Of a DNA stretch of 64,000 nucleotides, positions 2,116 to 47,716 are shown in pieces. Every line of letters starts with the position of its first letter. The stretch's first letter is position 1. The stretch lies in sequence record MW269952.1; one strand, written 5' to 3'. The stretch is from Escherichia phage P479. A model generated the notes under the pieces. The model was not told the DNA's origin. It saw only the letters and a program-made list of their open reading frames with translations, and did no database searches. Made by a program: the position numbers and the translations under genes.

Positions 2116-2697
2116 ATGAAACCAACTACTGTTCTGCAAATCGCATACCTTGTATCTCAAGAATCCAAATGTTGCTCCTGGAAAGTGGGAGCTGTTATTG
2201 AAAAGAATGGTCGCATTATTTCTACAGGGTATAATGGTTCCCCTGCGGGTGGGGTTAACTGTTGCGAGCATGCGGAAGAGCAAGGTTGGTTACTGAATAA
2301 ACCTAAACCAGTTCTCATCCCTGGTCATAAGTCAGAATGCGTGAGATTCAGTCAGGTTGACCGTTTTGTATTGGCGAAAGCTCATCGCGAAGCTCATTCG
2401 GCCTGGTCAAAGAACAACGAAATTCATGCCGAGCTTAATGCGATTCTGTTCGCAGCCAGAATGGGTTCGTCAATTGAAGGCGCTACTATGTATGTGACGC
2501 TTTCTCCTTGCCCTGATTGTGCAAAGGCAATTTCTCAATCAGGAATCAAGAAATTGGTTTACTGTGAAACGTATGATAAGAATATTCCTGGTTGGGATGA
2601 TATCCTGAAGAACGCGGGAATTGAGGTGTTCAATGTGCCTAAGCGTAGTCTAGACAAATTGAACTGGGAAAACATTAACGAATTTTGTGGTGAATAA
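2116..2697 (+). CDS. cd: dCMP deaminase
   Basis: 193 aa; zinc-binding deaminase motifs CEHAE and PCPDC visible; recalled similarity to T4 Cd; synteny upstream of gene 31. Confidence 0.85.
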   Translation: MKPTTVLQIAYLVSQESKCCSWKVGAVIEKNGRIISTGYNGSPAGGVNCCEHAEEQGWLLNKPKPVLIPGHKSECVRFSQVDRFVLAKAHREAHSAWSKNNEIHAELNAILFAARMGSSIEGATMYVTLSPCPDCAKAISQSGIKKLVYCETYDKNIPGWDDILKNAGIEVFNVPKRSLDKLNWENINEFCGE

Positions 2698-2930
2698 TGA
2701 AATTTCGTCTAGTTAAGTTTTCAGGTCTGAACTCAAAAGGTGAAAACCTGGTAGCCTATTCAGTAGAATATAAAAAGTACTTTTTCTCTCGTTGGAAATC
2801 GTACTATAAATCCGAGTGGGTTCGCCCCGAAATGAACTATAAAACGGTGCCTATTCTTGAAAATTGCCATAGCCTATTAAGAGCTCTAAAAGAGCGTAAT
2901 GCAACAACCATTAAAACTGTTTTGGAATAA
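2697..2930 (+). CDS. hypothetical protein (positional equivalent of T4 31.2)
   Basis: ORF track, 77 aa; synteny between cd and 31. Confidence 0.4.
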   Translation: MKFRLVKFSGLNSKGENLVAYSVEYKKYFFSRWKSYYKSEWVRPEMNYKTVPILENCHSLLRALKERNATTIKTVLE

Positions 2931-2932
2931 TT

Positions 2933-3232
2933 ATGATTTTAACTGAACAAGAAACAATTCGTCTCCGTGAAAAAGTCAAGACTATTTTGTCTGTTGGTTT
3001 TCACGAAGTTCTGTTTGAAAAAGCAGATGGTAGCATCCGCCGTATGACTTGTACTCGTGACCTGGACCTGCTGCCGCATAAAGAAATCCAGACCCCTGGA
3101 CCAGAAGCCAATAAAGAACCAGTTAGCTATATCCGGGTATTTGATACCAAGCTTAATGAATGGCGTTCATTCTGTTTCAATAAATTGATTTCCGTGAATG
3201 GTCTGCAGACCGAGACTCTGCTTGTCCTTTAA
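2933..3232 (+). CDS. hypothetical protein (positional equivalent of T4 31.1)
   Basis: ORF track, 99 aa; synteny. Confidence 0.4.
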   Translation: MILTEQETIRLREKVKTILSVGFHEVLFEKADGSIRRMTCTRDLDLLPHKEIQTPGPEANKEPVSYIRVFDTKLNEWRSFCFNKLISVNGLQTETLLVL

Positions 3233-3287
3233 TGCTTCAAACGGTGCGTGTTATTATTAATACATGACCAAACAACATGGATTAAAT

Positions 3288-4581: not shown

Positions 4582-4587
4582 AGTTCA

Positions 4588-4615
4588 GGGACTCTTCGGA
4601 GTCCCTTTTTTATTT
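4588..4615 (+). terminator. rho-independent terminator
   Basis: ggactc-ttcg-gagtcc hairpin followed by a T-run (ttttttatttt). Confidence 0.7.
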
Positions 4616-4626
4616 TCCATAAAGGG

Positions 4627-4656
4627 GTTTACAACAGGGTTTGACCAGTACATAAT
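4627..4656 (+). promoter_or_regulatory. T4-type early promoter (GTTTAC, 18 nt, CATAAT) with conserved leader gattccatactgagtta
   Basis: gtttac 4627-4632, cataat 4651-4656; a near-identical cassette lies at 27629-27699. Confidence 0.55.
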
Positions 4657-4697
4657 GATTCCATACTGAGTTACCAAATAAAACACTGGAGAATAAA

Positions 4698-5066
4698 ATG
4701 AAAATCAATCTTAACTCATACATCAAAGGTAAAGACCACGACGGGTACAAAGCCATTGAAACTAAAGAAATGCAATGGCACTTGTATAAAGAACAATTTG
4801 AATTTGTTGGTTGCATGACTCCAGAAGGTCCTTCTGATGACTTCTCTTGGAAAATTATGGTAACAAACTTTTTTACTGGTGATACCTACGAACTGAAAAC
4901 TATCGTAACTGGTAAGATTCGTTGTAAGACCTATGAAGATGAAGAAACTGGTTATTCTGAAGATGTTACATGGTATCAAAATGGTCGCACCACTGCAGAC
5001 CTTCTGATTGAAAAAATGAAAGCTAAGGGTGAATTAAATTTAGATAATTGGATTAAAGTCGCATAA
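4698..5066 (+). CDS. hypothetical protein, 122 aa
   Basis: ORF track; RBS ggag upstream. Confidence 0.5.
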   Translation: MKINLNSYIKGKDHDGYKAIETKEMQWHLYKEQFEFVGCMTPEGPSDDFSWKIMVTNFFTGDTYELKTIVTGKIRCKTYEDEETGYSEDVTWYQNGRTTADLLIEKMKAKGELNLDNWIKVA

Positions 5067-7812: not shown

Positions 7813-9351
7813 GTGATTATGATTTTAGATATTTTAAATGAAATTGCTGCAACCGATTCCACTAAAGAGAAACAAGCTATCCTGGAATCGTATTCTGACA
7901 ATGAAACCCTCAAACGTGTGTATCGTTTGACATATTCCAAAGGCATCCAGTTCTATATTAAGAAATGGCCAAAACCTGGGACAACGACTCAAAGCTTTGG
8001 TATGCTGAATATCGATGATATGCTTGACTTTATTGAATTCACATTAGCCTCTCGTAAATTAACAGGTAATGCTGCAATCGAGGAATTATCTGGCTATATT
8101 GCTGATGGTAAAAAAGCAGATGTTGAAGTCCTGCGGCGTGTTATGATGCGTGACCTGGAATGCGGGGCATCCGTATCAATTGCGAATAAGGTTTGGAAAG
8201 GTTTAATTCCTGAACAACCACAGATGCTCGCTTCTTCCTATGATGAAGCCGGTATTGCCAAGAACATTAAGTTCCCGGCCTTTGCGCAATTGAAAGCCGA
8301 CGGCGCTCGGTGTTTTGCAGAAGTTCGTGGCGATGAGTTGGATGATGTTCGATTGCTATCCCGAGCTGGTAACGAATACCTTAAGCTTGACCTCCTTAAA
8401 AAGGAATTGATTGAAGCTACCCGTGAAGCGCGTGAGAGGCATCCTGAGGGCGTTTTGATTGACGGCGAGTTAGTATATCATGAACAGAAAATAGCTCCAC
8501 AGAATGATGGTTTGGGTTTCCTTTTTGACGATTCAGATGAGATTGCTCCTGCAAAAGAAACCGCAGAATCAAGAACATTTTCGAATGGTATGGCAAACAA
8601 ATCATTAAAAGGAACCATTTCTGCAACAGAAGCTTCTTGCATGAAATTCCAGGTTTGGGATTATGTTCCACTGATTGAAGTCTATTCTGATGTTAAGATT
8701 CTCAATCCGTTGAAATACGATGTGCGTTTTGCTGTTCTGGAAAAGATGATTGCAGATAACGTGGTGCTACATGGTTTCGACCGCATGATTCTGATTGAAA
8801 ACCATGTTGTTAACAATCTCGATGAAGCGAAGGTTATCTATAAGAAATATGTGGATGAAGGTCTTGAAGGTATTATCCTTAAGAACATGGCATCGATTTG
8901 GGAAAACAAGCGCTCAAAGAACTTGTACAAGTTCAAAGAAGTAATTGACATTGCAATGGAAATCATTGGATATTACGAGCACGATAAAGACCCGAATAAG
9001 ATTGGCGGTGTTGTGCTTCGTTCTTCTTGTGGTAAGATTACAAATAACTGTGGTTCTGGTTTTAAAGACACAACTCAAGTTAAAGATAAGAAAACCAAAA
9101 AATGGGTTACTATTCCGATTGAGGAGCGTCATGAAATGGACCGTGAAGCCTTGATGGTTAAAGCCCGTAAAGGTGAATTGGTTGGAATGATTGCCGACTG
9201 TGAATGTAATGGTTGGTTGACTTCCGAGACTCGTAAAGATAATACGGTTGCATTGTTCCTGCCGATTATCAAAGGGTTCCGTTTCGATAAAGACCATGCA
9301 GACACATTCGAAGATGTATTTGGCGACTGGTCAAAGACCGGGTTAAAATAA
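7813..9351 (+). CDS. 30: ATP-dependent DNA ligase gp30
   Basis: 512 aa; N-terminus MILDILNEIAATDSTKEKQAILESY... matches recalled T4 ligase; adenylation motif KADG (AQLKADGAR) present. Confidence 0.9.
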   Translation: MIMILDILNEIAATDSTKEKQAILESYSDNETLKRVYRLTYSKGIQFYIKKWPKPGTTTQSFGMLNIDDMLDFIEFTLASRKLTGNAAIEELSGYIADGKKADVEVLRRVMMRDLECGASVSIANKVWKGLIPEQPQMLASSYDEAGIAKNIKFPAFAQLKADGARCFAEVRGDELDDVRLLSRAGNEYLKLDLLKKELIEATREARERHPEGVLIDGELVYHEQKIAPQNDGLGFLFDDSDEIAPAKETAESRTFSNGMANKSLKGTISATEASCMKFQVWDYVPLIEVYSDVKILNPLKYDVRFAVLEKMIADNVVLHGFDRMILIENHVVNNLDEAKVIYKKYVDEGLEGIILKNMASIWENKRSKNLYKFKEVIDIAMEIIGYYEHDKDPNKIGGVVLRSSCGKITNNCGSGFKDTTQVKDKKTKKWVTIPIEERHEMDREALMVKARKGELVGMIADCECNGWLTSETRKDNTVALFLPIIKGFRFDKDHADTFEDVFGDWSKTGLK

Positions 9352-9352
9352 C

Positions 9353-9374
9353 AAAAGGGCTTCGGCCCTTTTTT
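9353..9374 (+). terminator. rho-independent terminator after the ligase gene
   Basis: gggc-ttcg-gccc hairpin followed by tttttt. Confidence 0.65.
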
Positions 9375-9376
9375 AG

Positions 9377-9384
9377 TATAAATA
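9377..9384 (+). promoter_or_regulatory. T4-type late promoter TATAAATA upstream of alt
   Basis: tataaata 25 nt upstream of the alt ATG. Confidence 0.6.
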
Positions 9385-9409
9385 CATCATATTTTATAAG
9401 GAACCTATT

Positions 9410-11470
9410 ATGTCTGAACAATTAAATGAACTCTTTGACAAATATATCGAAGCCTTCGATTATCCTGTCATTAATATGAATCCGAAATACAAGGTCCCAC
9501 AGGTTTGGCAATTCGGTGTTCCTGGGACCAATTCTCTTATGGCCCGTTTGATGCAATTCACGGGCAAAGAAACAGTTAAACAATATAAACGCGGCGATGC
9601 AATTGCCGAGGTATTCCTGCTCTCCGGGACTTCACATGGCCATGCTGTTCCTCTGAAGGGTGGTCTAGGTGAAAAACCTCTTGATGCGATTAACCTGATT
9701 TTTGTTACAGTCTGGGAAAGCATTAAACTAGGCAAACCTGATGTAGTCTTGTTCCGTTTCCCATCCAAAAAGATGAAAGGGCAAGACCAAGCTGTTATTC
9801 GTATTATGAATCGACTGATTCAAATGAAAACCAGCGGGCGTTATCATGTTCTTCCAAATGCTTCTGGTCTCGGTAAAAAGAACGCATACGTAATTATGTA
9901 CAAAAAGGGTGTTGACCTGCTTTCGGTTGATGGTATGCCACCAGTCCCTGAGAAATATCAAAAAGTTGAAACTAAAGTTGGCGATGTATTCACCAATAAA
10001 GATACAGGTGCACAAGTCTCCAAACAAGAAATCGCAGCCGAAGTTCTGATTGACGCAGCAAACAAAAAGACCGATGCTGCTGTTGCCCAGAAAACTAAAA
10101 TAAGTCGCCGAGCTATTGCACAAGCCCAGTATGCTCCAAGTGATTCCGTGCCCGATGGCTGGGACGAAATTGATGCAGAAGCTGCTAAGTTTAGTCGACC
10201 GGCTACGGCAGAACTTATCGATGATTATGAAGAACTGGAAATTTTTGTTCGACCTTCCGAAACGAATACTATGGCTCGTATGCGCGCAGCAGATGAGGCT
10301 ATGCGAGCAAATGGTGTTTGGAAAGAAGAAATTCGTGTTGAAGACTCTGACCCAATTTTTAACCGTATGCATCGTGAACTTAAACGTGCCCCTGTTGGCA
10401 GTATGAAGCAGATGCAGATTTTTGCCGAATCATGTGCCGAGATTCTTAACCTTCGCAAAGCCGCATTTATCGAAAGAAAAATGAATGATGCTCCTCCTAA
10501 CCTGGATGCAGCCACTTATGCAGCCTCGCTCTGGGAAAAAGAATACACAAGCGCCATTCGTGTTGCAGTTAAAGACTTTGCCGAAGAAGCATCAGAAAAT
10601 ACTCTTAATTTCACAGCAGGATATACTGACAACCGTTTCCATTATGGCCAGCGAGAAGCAATTGCAGATTATTGTGGAGCAAACTATGCCGATATTAATA
10701 ATTATTTGATGGGCAAATATTATGAAGAAGAAGCTGAATTCCTAAATCTAGACAGAGTTGTCGAAACAATTAAGGAATTGGATTCGGCCTTTGAAATTGG
10801 ACATAAGTTGCCGCCTAATACAACTCTTTGGCGTGGTCAATATTTAAACGTTCCTACATTTGATAAAATTAAGAAATCTAAATTATTTTATTTCAGGAAC
10901 TATGTATCAACGTCGTTTAAACCGATTATCTTTGGTGGCTGGGTGGCGAACGTTGCTATGGCTGCAGTTCATCAGGACTATCGTGATGGGACATCTTTCC
11001 AGGCTGATGACGAAATTGTTTTACCAGATATGCCAGCTGTACGCCGCGACCATGTAATGATGCATGTTGGTTGGAAAATTTCTGGGGCGGACTTAATTAA
11101 CGTAATTGTTCCTGGGGAATTGTCAAGCAACCCGTCCGAGCAGGAAGTTATTCTTCCTCGTGGGACTGTAGTTAAGATTACCAAAATTACTGATGCTTCG
11201 TATCAAGGAAACGCGAACGTCAAAATGCTGGAAGCTGATATCCAGACTACGGACCAACTGGATGAAAATGCAGTTATCTATGATGGTGATGTGTTGATGG
11301 AAACTGGTGAGCTTGTCGTTTATCAGGGCGAGGAATCAGAAGAGCCAGTAGAATCTGTTGACTTTGCATCGTTTGCATCCTCTGGGGTGACGAAGAAAGT
11401 CAATCAAGGTCTTGGTATTCTTGCTAGTTGTATTAATTTGGAAGCTATTCCTCCTAAATTCCTTTCGTAG
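9410..11470 (+). CDS. alt: Alt-like ADP-ribosyltransferase (virion-packaged)
   Basis: 686 aa (T4 Alt about 680 aa); position adjacent to gene 30 as in T4; C-terminal block ...NVVLPGELSSNPSEQEVILPRGTVVKITKITDASY... resembles recalled T4 Alt. Confidence 0.75.
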   Translation: MSEQLNELFDKYIEAFDYPVINMNPKYKVPQVWQFGVPGTNSLMARLMQFTGKETVKQYKRGDAIAEVFLLSGTSHGHAVPLKGGLGEKPLDAINLIFVTVWESIKLGKPDVVLFRFPSKKMKGQDQAVIRIMNRLIQMKTSGRYHVLPNASGLGKKNAYVIMYKKGVDLLSVDGMPPVPEKYQKVETKVGDVFTNKDTGAQVSKQEIAAEVLIDAANKKTDAAVAQKTKISRRAIAQAQYAPSDSVPDGWDEIDAEAAKFSRPATAELIDDYEELEIFVRPSETNTMARMRAADEAMRANGVWKEEIRVEDSDPIFNRMHRELKRAPVGSMKQMQIFAESCAEILNLRKAAFIERKMNDAPPNLDAATYAASLWEKEYTSAIRVAVKDFAEEASENTLNFTAGYTDNRFHYGQREAIADYCGANYADINNYLMGKYYEEEAEFLNLDRVVETIKELDSAFEIGHKLPPNTTLWRGQYLNVPTFDKIKKSKLFYFRNYVSTSFKPIIFGGWVANVAMAAVHQDYRDGTSFQADDEIVLPDMPAVRRDHVMMHVGWKISGADLINVIVPGELSSNPSEQEVILPRGTVVKITKITDASYQGNANVKMLEADIQTTDQLDENAVIYDGDVLMETGELVVYQGEESEEPVESVDFASFASSGVTKKVNQGLGILASCINLEAIPPKFLS

Positions 11471-11824: not shown

Positions 11825-11853
11825 AAAAGGGACCTTCGGGTCCCTTTCTTTTT
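11823..11853. terminator. bidirectional terminator hairpin (GGGACC-ttcg-GGTCCC) between the convergent 11534 ORF and gene 54
   Basis: Perfect 6-bp stem flanked by an A-run on the left and a T-run on the right. Confidence 0.7.
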
Positions 11854-23432: not shown

Positions 23433-24566
23433 ATGGCTTATACCGTAACTATTGCTCCTTTGGCGGCTACGGCCGTTATTGGGGCAACAACAAATTTCAC
23501 TGCAACCGGTTCCGGTGCTGCAGCTGAAGGTACCGAATCATTTGTCTGGACCGTTGATGGCGTTCCTCAATCTTCTGTGACTGCTGCAATGGATTATGTC
23601 GCTGTTGGTCCAGCAGGCAGTAAGACTATTAAAGTTGTTGCAACCACCACTCCGGCAGACGGGGAACCGGAAACTGCTGAAGCTGAAACAACTTTAACTA
23701 TCCAGAATAAAACAATGCCGGCAATCACGCTGACTTTAGACCCGGCCTCTGTTACTAAAGAAATAGGGCAATCTCAAGTTGTTACTGCTAACGTGACAGG
23801 CGCTCCTTCTGGTGCAACAATCGCTTATGTTTGGAAACGAAATGCCGACGTAATCCCAGGACAAACTGGTAAAACAATCACCGTCACCGAATCGGCTGAA
23901 GCAAATTATACATTGAACTGTGAAGTTACTGTTTCAGCAGCAGATTATGATAATGGCACAGCAACTGAAGGTGCTGCTGTTATCTTTGTTAAGAAAACTA
24001 TGTCAGGTGTTTCTGTAACATTAACCCCAGAATCAATTAATGTTCCGGAAGACACCCCAGCCTCTTTTAAAGCGGATGTAGTCGGCGCACCGAGTGGAGC
24101 TACTTTTGCCTATTCTTGGAAGAAAGACGGTTCTCCTGTGGTTGGCAACACGGATACTCTAGCAATCGATACAAGCGCTGAAGGTTCACAGGTTATTGAA
24201 GTTTCTGTTGTGGTTTCGGCGACTGATTATAACCCGGCGACTGTCACAAAAACTGGTAATGTAACAGTCACGGCTAAAGTCGCACCAGTTCCAGATGGTG
24301 AACTACCTTACGTTCATCCGCTGCCAGTTCGTAATTCAGCTTATATCTGGTGTGGTTGGTGGGTTATGGACGAAATTCAGAAAATGACTCTTGCTGGACA
24401 AGACTGGAAAACTGATGCTCCAGATAGCCCGTATTATTTGCACCGATATACACTTCAAAAAATGATTACCGACTATCCAGAGGTTGATGTACAAGAATCT
24501 CGTAACGGTCGAATTATTCATCGCACCGCTTTAGAAGCTGGTATTATATACGATTACGTTTATTAA
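23433..24566 (+). CDS. hoc: Hoc, highly immunogenic outer capsid protein (Ig-like domains)
   Basis: 377 aa; repeated Ig-like segments; C-terminal ...GELPYVHPLPVRNSAYIWCGWWVMDEIQKMT...YYLHRYTLQKM...PEVDVQESRNG... matches recalled T4 Hoc. Confidence 0.85.
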   Translation: MAYTVTIAPLAATAVIGATTNFTATGSGAAAEGTESFVWTVDGVPQSSVTAAMDYVAVGPAGSKTIKVVATTTPADGEPETAEAETTLTIQNKTMPAITLTLDPASVTKEIGQSQVVTANVTGAPSGATIAYVWKRNADVIPGQTGKTITVTESAEANYTLNCEVTVSAADYDNGTATEGAAVIFVKKTMSGVSVTLTPESINVPEDTPASFKADVVGAPSGATFAYSWKKDGSPVVGNTDTLAIDTSAEGSQVIEVSVVVSATDYNPATVTKTGNVTVTAKVAPVPDGELPYVHPLPVRNSAYIWCGWWVMDEIQKMTLAGQDWKTDAPDSPYYLHRYTLQKMITDYPEVDVQESRNGRIIHRTALEAGIIYDYVY

Positions 24567-24568
24567 TT

Positions 24569-24598
24569 AAAAAGGGACCTTCGGGTCCCTTTGTTTTT
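24569..24598 (+). terminator. rho-independent terminator (GGGACC-ttcg-GGTCCC) after hoc
   Basis: Hairpin plus T-run. Confidence 0.7.
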
Positions 24599-26283: not shown

Positions 26284-26312
26284 ATAAAGGGACCCGAAGG
26301 TCCCTTTTTTAA
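26284..26312. terminator. bidirectional terminator hairpin (GGGACC-cgaa-GGTCCC) between convergent rnlB and gene 24
   Basis: Hairpin with a T-run on + and an A-run on the other side. Confidence 0.7.
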
Positions 26313-27589
26313 TTTATTTCAGTCAGAACTTTAGGAAGTTTCACACCAAGCAGTACAGACATATCTGAACGTCCTGCCATCAAATCCATATTTGTTGCAT
26401 CAATAATACGAGCTTGTTTATCATCAGCAGTCACTGTATAAGGGTTAGCTGCTAACGCATAACGAACCATTAATGCAATAGACGGCTGCAAACTTTCTGG
26501 GTCAACGACAACTTTGAACGAACCAACATGTTCAGGGTCTTCCAGGTCAAGACCTTCGGTATAAGGTGCATAAAACAGTGAACCCACCATCTCTTTCCCA
26601 CCGAAATCTTCTTTAACACCAACAGTCACATAATCAAATGGAGTGTTCGTATCGCAATAAAGCGGTAGACCATTATCCAAGAAACCATACGCATTATCGG
26701 AGAGATATTTCTCATCTTGTGGACGATGCTTCAACCAACCGGAACCAGCCAAAACTGCAGCTACACGCGTAGAAGCAACAACGTATGTTGCGGTGTAAGA
26801 AGTTGCCCGCTGAATATGGGAGACCATCTCACACATGATTTCGTACAACTTGCGTGAAGCTTCCGGAGAGTTGGTATAAGACAGGTCAATCAGGCCATCA
26901 TCACAGAGCCCAGCAACTTTATAACGCTTGGAAACTGTTACCAGGGATTGCAGGATATCTTTGTTAATTTCATCAGCCATTTCGGTAGCTAACAGGTCTT
27001 CCAGGAAGTTTGGAGCGTCAAAACCGTTTGCTTCCAGGTCCTGGGCCAGTTCCACTGTAACAGTGCTTTTCAGCTTACGAGATTTAACCGGAGCATTCCA
27101 TTTGTTAACCAAAAATTTAGCTTCGGCAATTTCAACTTCCTGTGGTCCTTCAAAACGTTCGGTGATTGCAGCTTCGGACATAATACGGATGGTCAATTTA
27201 ACCATCGCTTCTTGAAGCTGGTCATACTCATCGCCCGTTGCTCCAGCAAATGGAGTTGCTACCAGCGCTTTATAAACTACATTTTCAAACTGGAACAAAT
27301 CGTCTTTAGCATAAACTGCGCCAGCAACAAAAACCGGAATGGTCGCACGGTCTTTTGCTGATACTGCACCAGAATAGGTTGCACCAGTCTGGAAAGATAA
27401 TTCATCTTGCTGAGTCAGGTATTTAAGACCGTATAATGCCGCCAGTGGCTGGGATGTGCGCTGTTGTGCTACTAAATCGGTGTAAATCAGTTTAGTCGTA
27501 GCTCTGGTTAAAGCTACTAGATTCGGTCGACCAATCGAAGAACTTGTGGTCGTGGTCGACTCTTTTAAGAGTTCGTTAATTTTAGCCAT
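26309..27589 (-). CDS. 24: capsid vertex protein gp24
   Basis: 426 aa (T4 gp24 427 aa); synteny next to gene 23. Confidence 0.85.
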   Translation of the reverse strand: MAKINELLKESTTTTSSSIGRPNLVALTRATTKLIYTDLVAQQRTSQPLAALYGLKYLTQQDELSFQTGATYSGAVSAKDRATIPVFVAGAVYAKDDLFQFENVVYKALVATPFAGATGDEYDQLQEAMVKLTIRIMSEAAITERFEGPQEVEIAEAKFLVNKWNAPVKSRKLKSTVTVELAQDLEANGFDAPNFLEDLLATEMADEINKDILQSLVTVSKRYKVAGLCDDGLIDLSYTNSPEASRKLYEIMCEMVSHIQRATSYTATYVVASTRVAAVLAGSGWLKHRPQDEKYLSDNAYGFLDNGLPLYCDTNTPFDYVTVGVKEDFGGKEMVGSLFYAPYTEGLDLEDPEHVGSFKVVVDPESLQPSIALMVRYALAANPYTVTADDKQARIIDATNMDLMAGRSDMSVLLGVKLPKVLTEIN

Positions 27590-27614
27590 TGCTATTTCCT
27601 TTTGTGATATACTT

Positions 27615-27622
27615 TATTTATA
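27615..27622 (-). promoter_or_regulatory. T4-type late promoter for gene 24
   Basis: + strand tatttata = TATAAATA on -, 26 nt upstream of the gene 24 ATG. Confidence 0.6.
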
Positions 27623-27628
27623 AAAGTT

Positions 27629-27658
27629 GTTTACAACCAGATTAAGATAAGACATAAT
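27629..27658 (+). promoter_or_regulatory. T4-type early promoter (GTTTAC, 18 nt, CATAAT), second copy of the 4627 cassette
   Basis: gtttac 27629-27634, cataat 27653-27658, followed by gattccatactgagtta as at 4657-4673. Confidence 0.55.
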
Positions 27659-27699
27659 GATTCCATACTGAGTTAACAAACAAAACCTGGAGTTTAAAA

Positions 27700-27981
27700 A
27701 TGAACAAAGCAACTTTCCTTCTGAACACCTTTAAAAATCTGGAAATTGAAGTTATTGCCTTGGTCAACAAATACCCAAATGGTGTTAATGGTAATGCTCT
27801 GAACAAACTAGTTAAAAAATATGAAAACTTAGCATATGACACTGATTTCTGGTGGAATGGTAATTATTCTACTCACACTAAAGATAAAAATTGTAACTGG
27901 TTGAAACTTCAAGAAAACAATGTTAACTTCAGAGACCTCATCAAGCGCCGGGTAGAAGTTCATTTAAATGGTATGGTATGA
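27700..27981 (+). CDS. hypothetical protein, 93 aa, inserted between late genes 24 and 23 on the opposite strand
   Basis: ORF track; own early-type promoter upstream and terminator downstream. Confidence 0.5.
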   Translation: MNKATFLLNTFKNLEIEVIALVNKYPNGVNGNALNKLVKKYENLAYDTDFWWNGNYSTHTKDKNCNWLKLQENNVNFRDLIKRRVEVHLNGMV

Positions 27982-27985
27982 AAAC

Positions 27986-28017
27986 AAGAAAGGGACCTCA
28001 AGGGTCCCTTTTTATTT
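27986..28017. terminator. bidirectional terminator hairpin (GGGACC-tcaag-GGTCCC) between the 27700 ORF and gene 23
   Basis: Hairpin followed by tttttattt. Confidence 0.7.
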
Positions 28018-28031
28018 AACTTAATCTAGGA

Positions 28032-29591
28032 TTAAATTCCTTTAACATATACGCGGCGGAAGTAACCGTTCAAGCCAAGGCTGTTAACGATGTCCGGCAT
28101 GCCGTTCTGAATGCGCTTGGTCGGAGCCTGAGCAGCAGGGTCAGCAAACGGGTTGATACCGATACCGTAACGGGTTTTGAAGCCCATAACCGGCTGGAAG
28201 TTTTTCGGGTCAGAACCACGCAGCGGGGTCAGTGCAACATATGGTGCGTAGTAGATACCAGCATCCATTTCGTTAGCGCCTTTGTAACCAATGGTGAAGT
28301 AATCTGCACGAGCATACTGGTCGATATAGACACGGTATTTGCCACCCAGAACACCAGCGAACACAGCTTTAGTGGTGTCAACGTTGAAACCTTTACCCAG
28401 ACCCTGAGCAGCATAACTAACAGAAGTATCAACAGCAGCCAGCACGTTAACTACGTTACGGGAAGCGATGATGAAGTTACCTGCACCACGACCGGTCTGA
28501 CGAGCGATTTCAGCGGCTTCTTTATCAATCTGGAACAGTAAAGCTTTGAAGCTTTCACCAGCCCAACGAGCACCACGGATATCAATCGGGTCCTGGAAGT
28601 CAAACACACCAGCTTTAGCACCAACGGTGTTGGTCATACCAGATTTACCAACCTGTGCGGAGTAGTTAATCCAATCGATAACTTCGCGGTTGATTTCCAG
28701 CATAATTTCGGTAGCCAGAATACCACTCAATTCGGCATCAGCATCCATACCGTGAACAGCGCGGAGGTCCTGTGCCAGTTCGATGGAGTAGCTTGCTTTC
28801 AGCTGACGGGATTTAGCTTCGATAACTTGTTTGTCGATGCGGAAGCCCATTTCGTTCCACGGGTTATCAGAGGAACCGTTAAAACCTTCTTGCAGTTCGG
28901 CGATGGAGGTAGCCATACCTTCAGCCAATTCAGCCAGCTGACCAGCTTCGAGCAGTTTGGTAACTTCAGCGTCAAGTTTAGCAGCATCGGTAGCAGCAGC
29001 ATCAACAGTTACAGCTTCAACAGCCTGGAAGTGTGCAGAACCGGTTGCTTCGAAGAAGTGAGAATAAATTTTACCAACTTCCAGAACTTTGCTTGCAGCC
29101 AGTGCTTCAAAAGTCTTAGCAGCGCCCTGACCAGAGAACATAGCGTTCGGAGCATACATCGGATGGAAAGCTTCTTTAGCACCAGATGCAACAGGGTCTT
29201 TACCGTATACTGCACGCAGTGCAAATACCTGGCCAGTCGGGTTGTTCAGAGGCTGTACGCCACAAATGTCAAACGCAATCAGATGCGGGATAGCACGACG
29301 AACCATACCCATAACTGCCGGCCCAATCTGAGTTACTGCACCAGAGGTCTGGCCAGCAGCAATATTGGTAGCATCATAACCATGGTCACCACCGATTTCA
29401 GCTTCGGTCAGGAAAGAACCAAATGCTTCGGAGATTTTTTCGTCACGGTATTCAGGAGCGGTCAGAATATCTTGTTCCTGGTTTTCAAAGATTTTAGCGA
29501 TGATAGCTTGTTTAGAAGCACCAACGATTTCCGGAAGAGCTTCGTTTTCCAGCAGAGCGGACCATTTTTGAACTAATGCATTCTTTTTCAT
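28032..29591 (-). CDS. 23: major capsid protein gp23
   Basis: 519 aa (T4 gp23 521 aa); synteny. Confidence 0.9.
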   Translation of the reverse strand: MKKNALVQKWSALLENEALPEIVGASKQAIIAKIFENQEQDILTAPEYRDEKISEAFGSFLTEAEIGGDHGYDATNIAAGQTSGAVTQIGPAVMGMVRRAIPHLIAFDICGVQPLNNPTGQVFALRAVYGKDPVASGAKEAFHPMYAPNAMFSGQGAAKTFEALAASKVLEVGKIYSHFFEATGSAHFQAVEAVTVDAAATDAAKLDAEVTKLLEAGQLAELAEGMATSIAELQEGFNGSSDNPWNEMGFRIDKQVIEAKSRQLKASYSIELAQDLRAVHGMDADAELSGILATEIMLEINREVIDWINYSAQVGKSGMTNTVGAKAGVFDFQDPIDIRGARWAGESFKALLFQIDKEAAEIARQTGRGAGNFIIASRNVVNVLAAVDTSVSYAAQGLGKGFNVDTTKAVFAGVLGGKYRVYIDQYARADYFTIGYKGANEMDAGIYYAPYVALTPLRGSDPKNFQPVMGFKTRYGIGINPFADPAAQAPTKRIQNGMPDIVNSLGLNGYFRRVYVKGI

Positions 29592-47692: not shown

Positions 47693-47716
47693 AAAAAAGG
47701 GACCCGAAGGTCCCTT
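47693..47716 (-). terminator. rho-independent terminator (GGGACC-cgaa-GGTCCC) after gene 8
   Basis: Hairpin directly after the gene 8 stop, followed on - by a T-run. Confidence 0.65.

What the first reader, a model, noticed from the sequence alone, without database searches (positions are those of the whole stretch)
27600..28017. Stand-alone early-type gene module inserted between capsid genes 24 and 23 on the opposite strand
Seen: a 93-aa ORF (27700-27981) with its own GTTTAC/CATAAT promoter and its own GGGACC/GGTCCC terminator sits between two leftward late genes. The late promoter for gene 24 (27615-27622) lies back-to-back with the early promoter. Established: in T4 this 23/24 interval is a known site of optional gene insertion. 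Inference: a moron-like accessory gene expressed early; function unknown, sequence non-repetitive and moderately basic.
Basis: partly seen in the sequence, partly recalled or inferred. Interest (0 to 1): 0.55.

Follow-up and report, generated by a model that had tools for sequence, protein, structure and literature searches.

The report
Small early accessory gene between capsid genes
This is a real but ordinary small phage gene of unknown function, already annotated as "hypothetical protein" in over 200 T4-like phage genomes, sitting in a swap-prone slot between two capsid genes that holds a homing endonuclease gene in other T4-like phages.

Summary
A 93-aa ORF (27700-27981, +) lies between gp24 (26309-27589, -) and gp23 (28032-29591, -). 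It has a T4-type early promoter (GTTTACA-N17-CATAAT), a back-to-back late promoter (TATAAATA) for gene 24, and a GC-rich hairpin downstream. The window is about 99.8% identical to Escherichia phage DK-13 (Gaprivervirus). The ORF is SP18gp189 / VR7ORF190c and belongs to phrog_6003, function unknown. It occupies the same position in Gaprivervirus, Dhakavirus and Mosigvirus (237 records, about 35-99% identity), evolves under purifying selection (dN/dS 0.04-0.24), and folds confidently (pLDDT 93) into a three-helix bundle with a beta-hairpin that has no structural or sequence relatives.

Alignment with "empty" 23/24 intervals in other genera shows a roughly 350-nt insertion carrying only the promoter, leader and ORF. 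The hairpin is the ancestral bidirectional terminator of gene 23, not the ORF's own. The same slot carries segD in T4 and in one Gaprivervirus (TH15). The gene is frameshifted independently in RB69 and in the mogra lineage, so it is dispensable.

The most likely role is an early, non-enzymatic, basic binding protein used for host takeover or counter-defence. This role is inferred, not shown. Interest is low and the feature is already known.

The parts
26309..27589 (-). gene 24 (capsid vertex protein), left flank of the slot
   Evidence: 426-aa ORF; PF07068 E 3e-104; annotated gp24 in SP18 at 99.3% identity
27615..27622 (-). T4-type late promoter TATAAATA for gene 24
   Evidence: Read directly. 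Invariant across Gapriver-, Dhaka-, Mosigvirus and the 'empty-slot' genera. TATAAATA occurs 16 times on the - strand and 6 times on the + strand in the window.
27625..27979 (+). Approximate extent of the roughly 350-nt insertion (early promoter + leader + ORF) relative to empty 23/24 intervals
   Evidence: Alignment A9. The empty sites read ...TATTTATAAA|GCTAC|AGAAACAAGAA-hairpin; the filled sites carry the promoter and ORF between these same flanks.
27629..27658 (+). T4-type early (sigma-70) promoter: -35 GTTTACA (27629-27635), 17-nt spacer, -10 CATAAT (27653-27658)
   Evidence: Scan gives 10 of 12 matches. Member of a class of six +-strand sites, each upstream of an SD and ATG. The -35 is conserved and the -10 stays in register across genera. 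T4 and TH15 have the same -35 position in front of segD.
27654..27675 (+). Repeated -10/leader segment ATAATGATTCCATACTGAGTTA, shared with another early promoter
   Evidence: Exact second copy at 4652-4673, upstream of the gene 30.8 homologue, with 0 expected by chance. Also found at another early gene in phage TH57.
27689..27692 (+). Shine-Dalgarno GGAG, 7 nt before the ATG
   Evidence: Read; a GGAG/GAGG motif is conserved in relatives
27700..27981 (+). 93-aa protein-coding gene (phrog_6003; = SP18gp189 / VR7ORF190c), basic, three-helix bundle plus beta-hairpin
   Evidence: ORF; phrog_6003 E 4e-46; 237 phage records by tblastn; dN/dS 0.04-0.24; AF2 pLDDT 93.4; pI 9.3
27987..28017 (.). Bidirectional intrinsic terminator (stem AAAGGGACC / GGTCCCTTT at 27989-28011, T-runs on both strands), shared by the ORF and gene 23
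   Evidence: z -3.3 on both strands. Compensatory stem change in other genera. Present in empty-slot phages, so ancestral to the site.
28032..29591 (-). gene 23 (major capsid protein), right flank of the slot
   Evidence: 519-aa ORF; PF07068 E 3e-122; SP18 annotation

Best explanation
This is a genuine monocistronic accessory gene cassette in a T4-like (Gaprivervirus) phage. An early promoter, a leader and a 93-aa ORF (about 350 nt in all) were inserted in an ancestor of Gapriver-, Dhaka- and Mosigvirus. The insertion lies between the gene-24 late promoter and the pre-existing bidirectional terminator of gene 23.

Proposed operation:
- Host sigma-70 RNA polymerase starts at the GTTTACA-N17-CATAAT promoter immediately after infection.
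- It makes an mRNA of about 350 nt that stops at the shared hairpin.
- The SD GGAG drives translation of a small, basic (pI about 9.3), compact alpha/beta protein with no enzymatic motif.
- The protein most likely acts stoichiometrically, binding a host macromolecule for host takeover or counter-defence.
- It is dispensable for growth.

The slot behaves as an exchangeable cassette site. It can be empty, hold this gene, or hold the homing endonuclease gene segD. The exchange points lie in the repeated promoter and hairpin sequences, as in PeSL-type shuffling.

Shown: coding status, conservation, insertion boundaries, regulatory motifs and their conservation, cargo swapping, dispensability.
Inferred: early timing, and the binding and host-directed function.
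For: - Coding and selected: ORF; phrog_6003 E 4e-46; 237 phage records, same position in three genera; dN/dS 0.04-0.24; pLDDT 93.4; the distant Vequintavirinae-type homologue has the same predicted fold, TM 0.86-0.91.
- Insertion into an ancestral empty site, with the hairpin pre-existing.
- Early-type promoter class and its conservation.
- Repeated promoter/leader and repeated hairpin stems.
- Cargo swap with segD at the same junctions.
- PeSL precedent, with T4/PST promoter consensus TTTACW-N17-TAYWAT: PMC4122927 and PMC2839356.
- Dispensability: independent frameshifts in RB69 and in mogra-type genomes.
- Early-region context of distant homologues: long arrays of small same-strand genes in a Vequintavirinae phage and related contigs.
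- Non-enzymatic: no hit in Pfam, NCBIfam, PADLOC or PDB. The invariant residues are M1, K3, F6, N30, G31, N32, N35, A45 and Q71, with no obvious catalytic set.
Against: - There are no expression data for this gene, so the timing rests on promoter class only.
- The uniformly basic pI of the family (8.0-9.9) fits nucleic-acid binding as well as protein binding.
- The promoter has no stem-loop immediately upstream, so it is not a canonical PeSL unit.
- The -10 hexamer begins with C, which departs from the consensus.
Confidence: 0.6

Rival explanations
1. The protein is a small nucleic-acid-binding factor (DNA or RNA) that modulates phage or host gene expression or nucleoid state early in infection, rather than a binder of a host protein.
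For: The whole family is basic (pI 8.0-9.9, net charge +1 to +8). Basic positions are conserved (K3 invariant; K40 in 15/17; K24 and K63 in 13/17). Invariant Asn/Gln residues (N30, N32, N35, Q71) sit at the N-terminus of a helix and the end of a strand.
Against: No helix-turn-helix, winged-helix, ribbon-helix-helix (RHH), zinc or KH signature was found in Pfam, NCBIfam or the PDB profile search. No structural match to DNA- or RNA-binding folds was found. The basic residues in helix 3 (KRR) are not conserved in the Mosigvirus and Vequintavirinae-type members.
Confidence: 0.25
2. The gene is selfish or slot-related cargo. It persists because it occupies or alters the 23/24 intergenic target that SegD-type homing endonucleases invade, or because it travels with repeated promoter/terminator cassettes. 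On this reading it gives little benefit to infection itself.
For: The same slot holds segD in T4 and TH15, with junctions in the shared -35 and hairpin regions. The flanking regulatory sequences are repeated elsewhere in the genome. The gene has been lost by frameshift at least twice without loss of viability.
Against: Purifying selection is strong, and the protein is conserved down to about 29% identity with its fold retained across three genera and in unrelated Vequintavirinae-type phages. That argues for a protein-level function. The SegD cleavage site was not examined.
Confidence: 0.08
3. The gene has a capsid-related function (assembly chaperone, decoration or regulator of gp23/gp24), as its position between capsid genes might suggest.
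For: Position only: it lies between genes 23 and 24 in every T4-like carrier.
Against: It is on the opposite strand, under an early-type rather than a late promoter. It is absent from four other genera that have the same capsid genes, and segD can replace it. Distant homologues sit in arrays of small early-type genes away from capsid genes. It is frameshifted in viable phages.
Confidence: 0.04
4. The ORF is not a real gene. The functional unit would be a non-coding transcript or simply spacer DNA.
For: No experimental evidence of the protein exists. The Rfam scan gave only sub-threshold matches.
Against: dN/dS is 0.04-0.24. Protein similarity is conserved where the DNA has diverged. The AF2 model is confident. 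An SD sits at the correct spacing. No Rfam family reaches its gathering threshold.
Confidence: 0.03

Closest known systems
T4 segD cassette in the 23/24 intergenic slot
   Same: Same genomic slot and same regulatory frame. The gene-24 late promoter TATAAATA sits back-to-back with a (G/A)TTTACA-type early promoter, the cargo is on the opposite strand, and a GC-rich hairpin lies next to the gene-23 stop. A SegD homologue (72% identical to T4 SegD) replaces this ORF in Gaprivervirus TH15.
   Different: The cargo is unrelated. SegD is a 223-aa GIY-YIG homing endonuclease. The 93-aa protein has no GIY-YIG or any other Pfam domain.
PeSL (promoter-early stem-loop) flanked ORFan cassettes of T4-type phages (Arbiol et al. 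2010, PMC2839356; Comeau et al. 2014, PMC4122927)
   Same: A small ORF of unknown function is bounded by a repeated early promoter (T4/PST consensus TTTACW-N17-TAYWAT), an SD and ATG, and a repeated stem-loop. It is associated with an indel or replacement between close relatives (papers read).
   Different: The canonical PeSL has the stem-loop immediately upstream of the promoter and lies in hyperplastic regions. Here the upstream neighbour is the divergent gene-24 late promoter, the stem-loop is downstream and ancestral to the site, and the slot lies inside the conserved structural module. Mini-circle formation was not tested.
Morons of lambdoid phages
   Same: An extra gene with its own promoter, inserted between two genes of a conserved late (structural) block and transcribed independently of them.
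   Different: The host phage is a member of Tevenvirinae, with no prophage state in which a moron would be expressed (background knowledge). The terminator is shared and ancestral, not brought in by the insert. The insertion is old and fixed in three genera.
Small early host-takeover proteins of Tevenvirinae (e.g. Alc; Mosigvirus AV110 Gp94/Emp, bioRxiv 10.64898/2026.09.14.751387)
   Same: A small protein of about 90-110 aa with an early-type promoter, a fold without known relatives, and conservation within related Tevenvirinae genera (for Emp; here).
   Different: There is no sequence or structural similarity to these proteins. The AV110 screen tested only homologues of T4 early proteins, so this gene, which has no T4 homologue, was not covered. 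No toxicity or target is known.

Membership tests
PHROG phrog_6003 (unknown function) | Full-length match to the family profile | tested here: met
   E 4.4e-46, 155.8 bits, residues 1-90 on profile positions 1-90 of 90
T4-type early (sigma-70) promoter | -35 GTTTAC(A/T), 16-18 nt spacer, -10 close to TATAAT, AT-rich upstream, followed by SD and ATG | tested here: met
   GTTTACA-17-CATAAT, 10 of 12 matches. Class of six on the + strand, each upstream of an SD and ATG. Conserved across genera.
T4-type early (sigma-70) promoter | Transcription in the first minutes of infection by unmodified host RNA polymerase | not testable with these tools
   No transcriptome of a carrier phage covering this gene was found
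Rho-independent terminator | GC-rich hairpin followed by a U-run | tested here: met
   9-bp stem (12 with G-U and A-U extension), -17 kcal/mol, z -3.3 on both strands, TTTTTATTT on the + strand. Compensatory stem changes in other genera.
PeSL cassette (Arbiol 2010; Comeau 2014) | Early promoter of the TTTACW-N17-TAYWAT type with SD and ATG at the 3' end | tested here: met
   TTTACA-17-CATAAT, with the first base of the -10 deviating. Consensus taken from PMC4122927.
PeSL cassette (Arbiol 2010; Comeau 2014) | [quoted passage not shown] | tested here: not met
   Upstream of the promoter lies the gene-24 late promoter and 5'UTR, with no hairpin. The only hairpin is downstream of the ORF. Canonical PeSL-type units do exist elsewhere in the window (4587-4606 + 4628; 24571-24592 + 24637).
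PeSL cassette (Arbiol 2010; Comeau 2014) | Element sequences repeated in the genome and located at indels or replacements between close relatives | tested here: met
   22-nt exact repeat at 4652-4673. Stem AAAGGGACC at 11826, 24571, 26286 and 27989; a shorter AAGGGACC stem at 47697. segD replacement in TH15 and empty sites in other genera.
PeSL cassette (Arbiol 2010; Comeau 2014) | Formation of excised mini-circles during infection | not testable with these tools
   Requires inverse PCR on infected cells (method in PMC2839356)
Moron (lambdoid sense) | Autonomous unit bringing its own promoter AND its own terminator | tested here: not met
   The promoter came with the insert, but the hairpin and its 5' flank AGAAACAAGAA are present in empty sites
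Seg-type GIY-YIG homing endonuclease (usual cargo of this slot in T4) | GIY-YIG catalytic domain | tested here: not met
   No Pfam hit for the 93-aa protein, whereas the TH15 occupant matches PF19835 and is 72% identical to T4 SegD
Known anti-phage defence proteins (PADLOC) | Match to any model of known or candidate defence-system proteins | tested here: not met
   0 families for three family members

The most novel reading that the evidence does not exclude
The 93-aa protein founds a previously unrecognised fold family of early effectors, shared by three Tevenvirinae genera and by Vequintavirinae-type coliphages. It would neutralise a specific enterobacterial target, either a defence system or a nucleoid- or RNA-associated factor. 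Its slot between genes 23 and 24 would be a dedicated exchange site where phages trade such effectors against SegD.
Probability: 0.3. Interest if true: 0.5.

Novelty: already known. Interest (0 to 1): 0.2.

Why it matters
The result matters mainly as housekeeping. It shows that the flagged module is a real, conserved but uncharacterised gene that public records already annotate as hypothetical.

It has modest added value in three respects:
- The 23/24 interval of T4-like phages is documented as a defined cassette slot. It can be empty, hold phrog_6003 or hold segD, and the junctions lie in repeated promoter and hairpin sequences. That fits the PeSL shuffling model inside a structural gene block.
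- The "own terminator" is really the gene-23 terminator.
- The protein is a confident, compact, orphan fold shared with unrelated large coliphages, which makes it a reasonable low-cost candidate for host-takeover or anti-defence screens.

Tried and rejected
- Sequence libraries: Pfam gave only a sub-threshold DUF5380 match (E 0.21). NCBIfam gave no hit for the window protein and only weak, scattered hits for other members. PADLOC gave nothing. The PDB profile search gave nothing below E 0.1.
- Exhaustive HMM search of 1.84 billion representative proteins: 9 hits only. These were family members or fragments, plus two long repetitive proteins (P0025, P0026) that I judged spurious after reading them, and one chimeric short-contig protein, P0023.
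- Rfam: only sub-threshold sRNA matches overlapping the hairpin.
- Literature: no paper mentions the locus tags or phrog_6003. The JS98 genome paper is not held. The AV110 early-protein screen did not include this gene.
- Middle promoter: I considered a MotA-type promoter from the TGCTAT...TATACT sequence overlapping the gene-24 start. I rejected it because that sequence coincides with the conserved gene-24 5'UTR and SD and lacks the TGCTT core.
- Capsid-related role and non-coding reading: both rejected (see rival explanations).
- JGI name: the label 'curcumin reductase CurA' on one homologue is a misannotation. The supporting match is NF058644 at E 0.047 in one member only.

Full report
**1. 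What is there**

The window is a T4-like phage. The 601-nt stretch around the finding is 99.8% identical to Escherichia phage DK-13 and 99.3% identical to Shigella phage SP18, genus Gaprivervirus. The ORF list confirms a 93-aa ATG-initiated ORF at 27700-27981 on the + strand. It lies between two - strand genes, 26309-27589 and 28032-29591. These are gp24 and gp23: both match PF07068 (E 3e-104 and 3e-122) and the SP18 annotation. In SP18 the ORF is annotated as hypothetical protein SP18gp189, in VR7 as VR7ORF190c, and it is noted as similar to JS98 gp173.

**2. Regulatory signals**

- Early promoter: the scan finds TTTACA-17 nt-CATAAT at 27630-27658, matching 10 of 12 positions.
- Promoter-like hits in this 8-kb region are no more frequent than in shuffles (12 against 14.7 expected), so the motif alone proves nothing.
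- Three further results make the promoter credible.
  - First, the window has six GTTTAC(A/T)-N16/17-(-10) sites on the + strand (939, 4628, 5072, 11474, 24637, 27630). Each lies shortly upstream of an SD and ATG (leader about 28-44 nt). The - strand has only one, weak, such site.
  - Second, across Gapriver-, Dhaka- and Mosigvirus and a metagenomic relative, the -35 is nearly invariant. A -10 (CATAAT, TACTAT or TATTAT) stays in register while the spacer diverges.
  - Third, the -10 plus the first 17 transcribed bases (ATAATGATTCCATACTGAGTTA) recur exactly at 4652-4673. That copy lies in front of the gene 30.8 homologue, with 0 copies expected by chance. The same segment sits in front of another early gene in phage TH57.
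It is invariant in all relatives. TATAAATA occurs 16 times on the - strand and 6 times on the + strand in the window, consistent with - being the late strand here.
- Hairpin: the stem AAAGGGACC / GGTCCCTTT at 27989-28011 folds at -17 kcal/mol with z = -3.3 on either strand. T-runs lie on both sides, so it is a bidirectional terminator.
- The Dhaka- and Mosigvirus equivalents have a different but fully complementary stem, GGGAGAC/GTCTCCC.

**3. The ORF is a real gene**

- tblastn finds it in 237 phage records, all covering at least 80% of its length. Identity is 90-99% in Gaprivervirus, about 61% in Dhakavirus and about 35% in Mosigvirus.
- It always lies between gp24 and gp23 on the opposite strand. 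A 29%-identical metagenomic T4-like relative has it in the same place.
- Within Gaprivervirus, dN/dS is 0.04-0.24.
- The protein matches phrog_6003 (unknown function) over its full length, E 4e-46.
- AlphaFold2 with a 17-sequence alignment gives pLDDT 93.4. The secondary structure is H3-24, H31-48, E52-61, E67-71, H77-90, that is, a three-helix bundle with an inserted beta-hairpin.

**4. It is an insertion, and the terminator is not its own**

- The 23/24 interval is only 81-93 nt long and holds no ORF in four other genera: Kanagawavirus IME523, Winklervirus CHI14, Pseudotevenvirus Miller and Jiaodavirus Mineola. In these phages it contains the late promoter and a hairpin.
- Aligning filled and empty sites shows that the empty sites read ...TATTTATAAA-GCTAC-AGAAACAAGAA-hairpin.
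- The filled sites carry about 350 nt between these same flanks (window about 27625-27979). The insert consists of the early promoter, the leader and the ORF up to its stop codon.
- The hairpin therefore predates the insertion. It is the gene-23 terminator, which the inserted gene uses in the opposite direction.
- Aeromonas phage 25 has two small same-strand ORFs in this interval instead.

**5. The slot exchanges cargo**

- T4 has the GIY-YIG homing endonuclease gene segD in this slot on the opposite strand.
- The T4 architecture is the same: TATTTATAAAGTTATTTACA...TATTAT...ATG on one side and a GC hairpin next to the gene-23 stop on the other.
- One Gaprivervirus, TH15, lacks the 93-aa gene and has a 219-aa ORF in its place.
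- That TH15 ORF matches the SegE_GIY-YIG Pfam family and is 72% identical to T4 SegD.
- Its left junction falls right after the shared ...AAAAGTTGTTTACA -35, and it has its own hairpin.
- The hairpin stem AAAGGGACC recurs at 11826, 24571, 26286 and 27989, with a shorter AAGGGACC stem at 47697. At 4587-4606 and 24571-24592 a stem-loop lies just upstream of a GTTTACA promoter.
- This is the composite "PeSL" arrangement described for T4-type phages. The reported T4/PST promoter consensus is TTTACW-N17-TAYWAT. These elements were proposed, with inverse-PCR evidence for mini-circles, to mediate insertion, deletion and swapping of small ORFs (PMC4122927; PMC2839356).
- The present unit shares the promoter, SD and repeat features and the association with a replacement. 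It lacks the upstream stem-loop, so I file it as PeSL-like, not as a canonical PeSL.

**6. Dispensability**

- The RB69 reference record has the gene broken by two indels relative to the 97%-identical ST0 locus. It is annotated there as two tiny ORFs, 188c and 189c.
- Phage mogra and independent metagenomic contigs carry a different lesion, a 1-nt deletion in an A-run. This leaves a 38-aa and a 51-aa ORF.
- So the refutation criterion "frameshifts in close relatives" is met in a small minority of Mosigvirus genomes. The bulk of 237 records keep an intact, constrained ORF.
- The pattern is that of a useful but non-essential accessory gene.

**7. Function**

- No library gives a lead. Pfam, NCBIfam, PADLOC and a PDB sequence profile all returned nothing useful.
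- An exhaustive profile search of 1.84 billion representatives returns only the family itself, fragments and spurious repeat proteins.
- BFVD returns only the family's own distant member, with TM 0.86-0.91.
- That distant branch occurs in a Vequintavirinae phage (ABPH49) and in related large contigs. There it lies in long arrays of small, same-strand, unannotated genes separated by hairpins and promoters, which is typical early-region organisation.
- The family is uniformly basic, pI 8.0-9.9. Its invariant residues are M1, K3, F6, N30, G31, N32, N35, A45 and Q71, with no obvious catalytic set.
- My best inference is a non-enzymatic early protein that binds a host macromolecule for takeover or counter-defence.
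- Nucleic-acid binding is the main rival because of the conserved positive charge.
- A capsid role is unlikely. The evidence against it is the opposite strand, the early promoter class, absence from genera with the same capsid genes, replaceability by segD, and disruption in viable phages.
- A recent screen of Mosigvirus AV110 early proteins covered only homologues of T4 early proteins, so it did not test this gene.

**8. Verdict**

There are three corrections: the terminator is shared and ancestral, the insertion is ancient and fixed in three genera, and "moron" is only an analogy, with PeSL-type cassette exchange and the T4 segD slot as the closer precedents. The gene is already annotated as hypothetical in public genomes and belongs to an existing PHROG. 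Its kind, a small early accessory ORF in a T4-like phage, is commonplace. Interest is low. The residual interest lies in an orphan, confidently folded, basic protein shared between T4-like and Vequintavirinae-type coliphages whose target is unknown.

Noticed in passing
window 4587-4700: A canonical PeSL-like unit. Stem-loop AGGGACTC-TTCG-GAGTCCCT plus a T-run is followed by GTTTACA-17-CATAAT and a leader identical over 22 nt to that of the 27630 promoter. It drives the gene 30.8 homologue (PF06019, 4698-5066).
   Followed up: partly
window 11826-11847, 24571-24592, 26286-26307, 27989-28011, 47697-47716: The same terminator stem AAAGGGACC/GGTCCCTTT (AAGGGACC at 47697), mostly with UUCG/CGAA tetraloops, recurs five times. 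It is a repeated regulatory hairpin that could serve as a recombination substrate.
   Followed up: partly
L010 (Escherichia virus TH15, MT446392.1) 2614-3273: This Gaprivervirus carries a SegD homologue (219 aa, 72% identical to T4 SegD) in the 23/24 slot instead of the 93-aa gene. The left junction falls right after the shared -35 hexamer.
   Followed up: yes
L018 (RB69, NC_004928) 9285-9540; L026 (phage mogra, MN850579.1) 488-756: The Mosigvirus copy of the gene is disrupted independently. RB69 has two indels (annotated as ORF188c and ORF189c). Mogra and several metagenomic contigs have a 1-nt deletion in an A-run. The RB69 lesions could also be old sequencing errors.
   Followed up: partly
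window 27892-27894 (codon 65): The window protein has Cys65 in the beta-hairpin turn, where 13 of the 17 aligned family members have Gly (one other has Cys). This is the only amino-acid difference from SP18.
   Followed up: no
window 23433-24566: The ORF at the Hoc position is 377 aa with internally repeated Ig-like segments. The hoc gene annotated in the otherwise 99%-identical SP18 is only 849 nt (282 aa), which suggests a difference in domain number in the head decoration protein.
   Followed up: no
L002 (JS10) 1-2399; L012 2337-4901; L019 1-2115: Dhakavirus JS10, a metagenomic relative and Kanagawavirus IME523 carry two tandem gp24 paralogues (24a/24b). The window has a single gp24 followed directly by rnlB.
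   Followed up: no
P0017, P0023 (database proteins): One family member carries the JGI name 'NADPH-dependent curcumin reductase CurA', an evident misannotation. P0023 (160 aa, on a 701-nt contig) fuses 30 residues of this family to an unrelated N-terminus and is probably an assembly chimera.
   Followed up: partly
window, whole: Promoter motifs show strand asymmetry. TATAAATA occurs 16 times on the - strand and 6 times on the + strand. GTTTAC-type early promoters occur 6 times on the + strand against 1 weak site on the - strand.
   Followed up: partly
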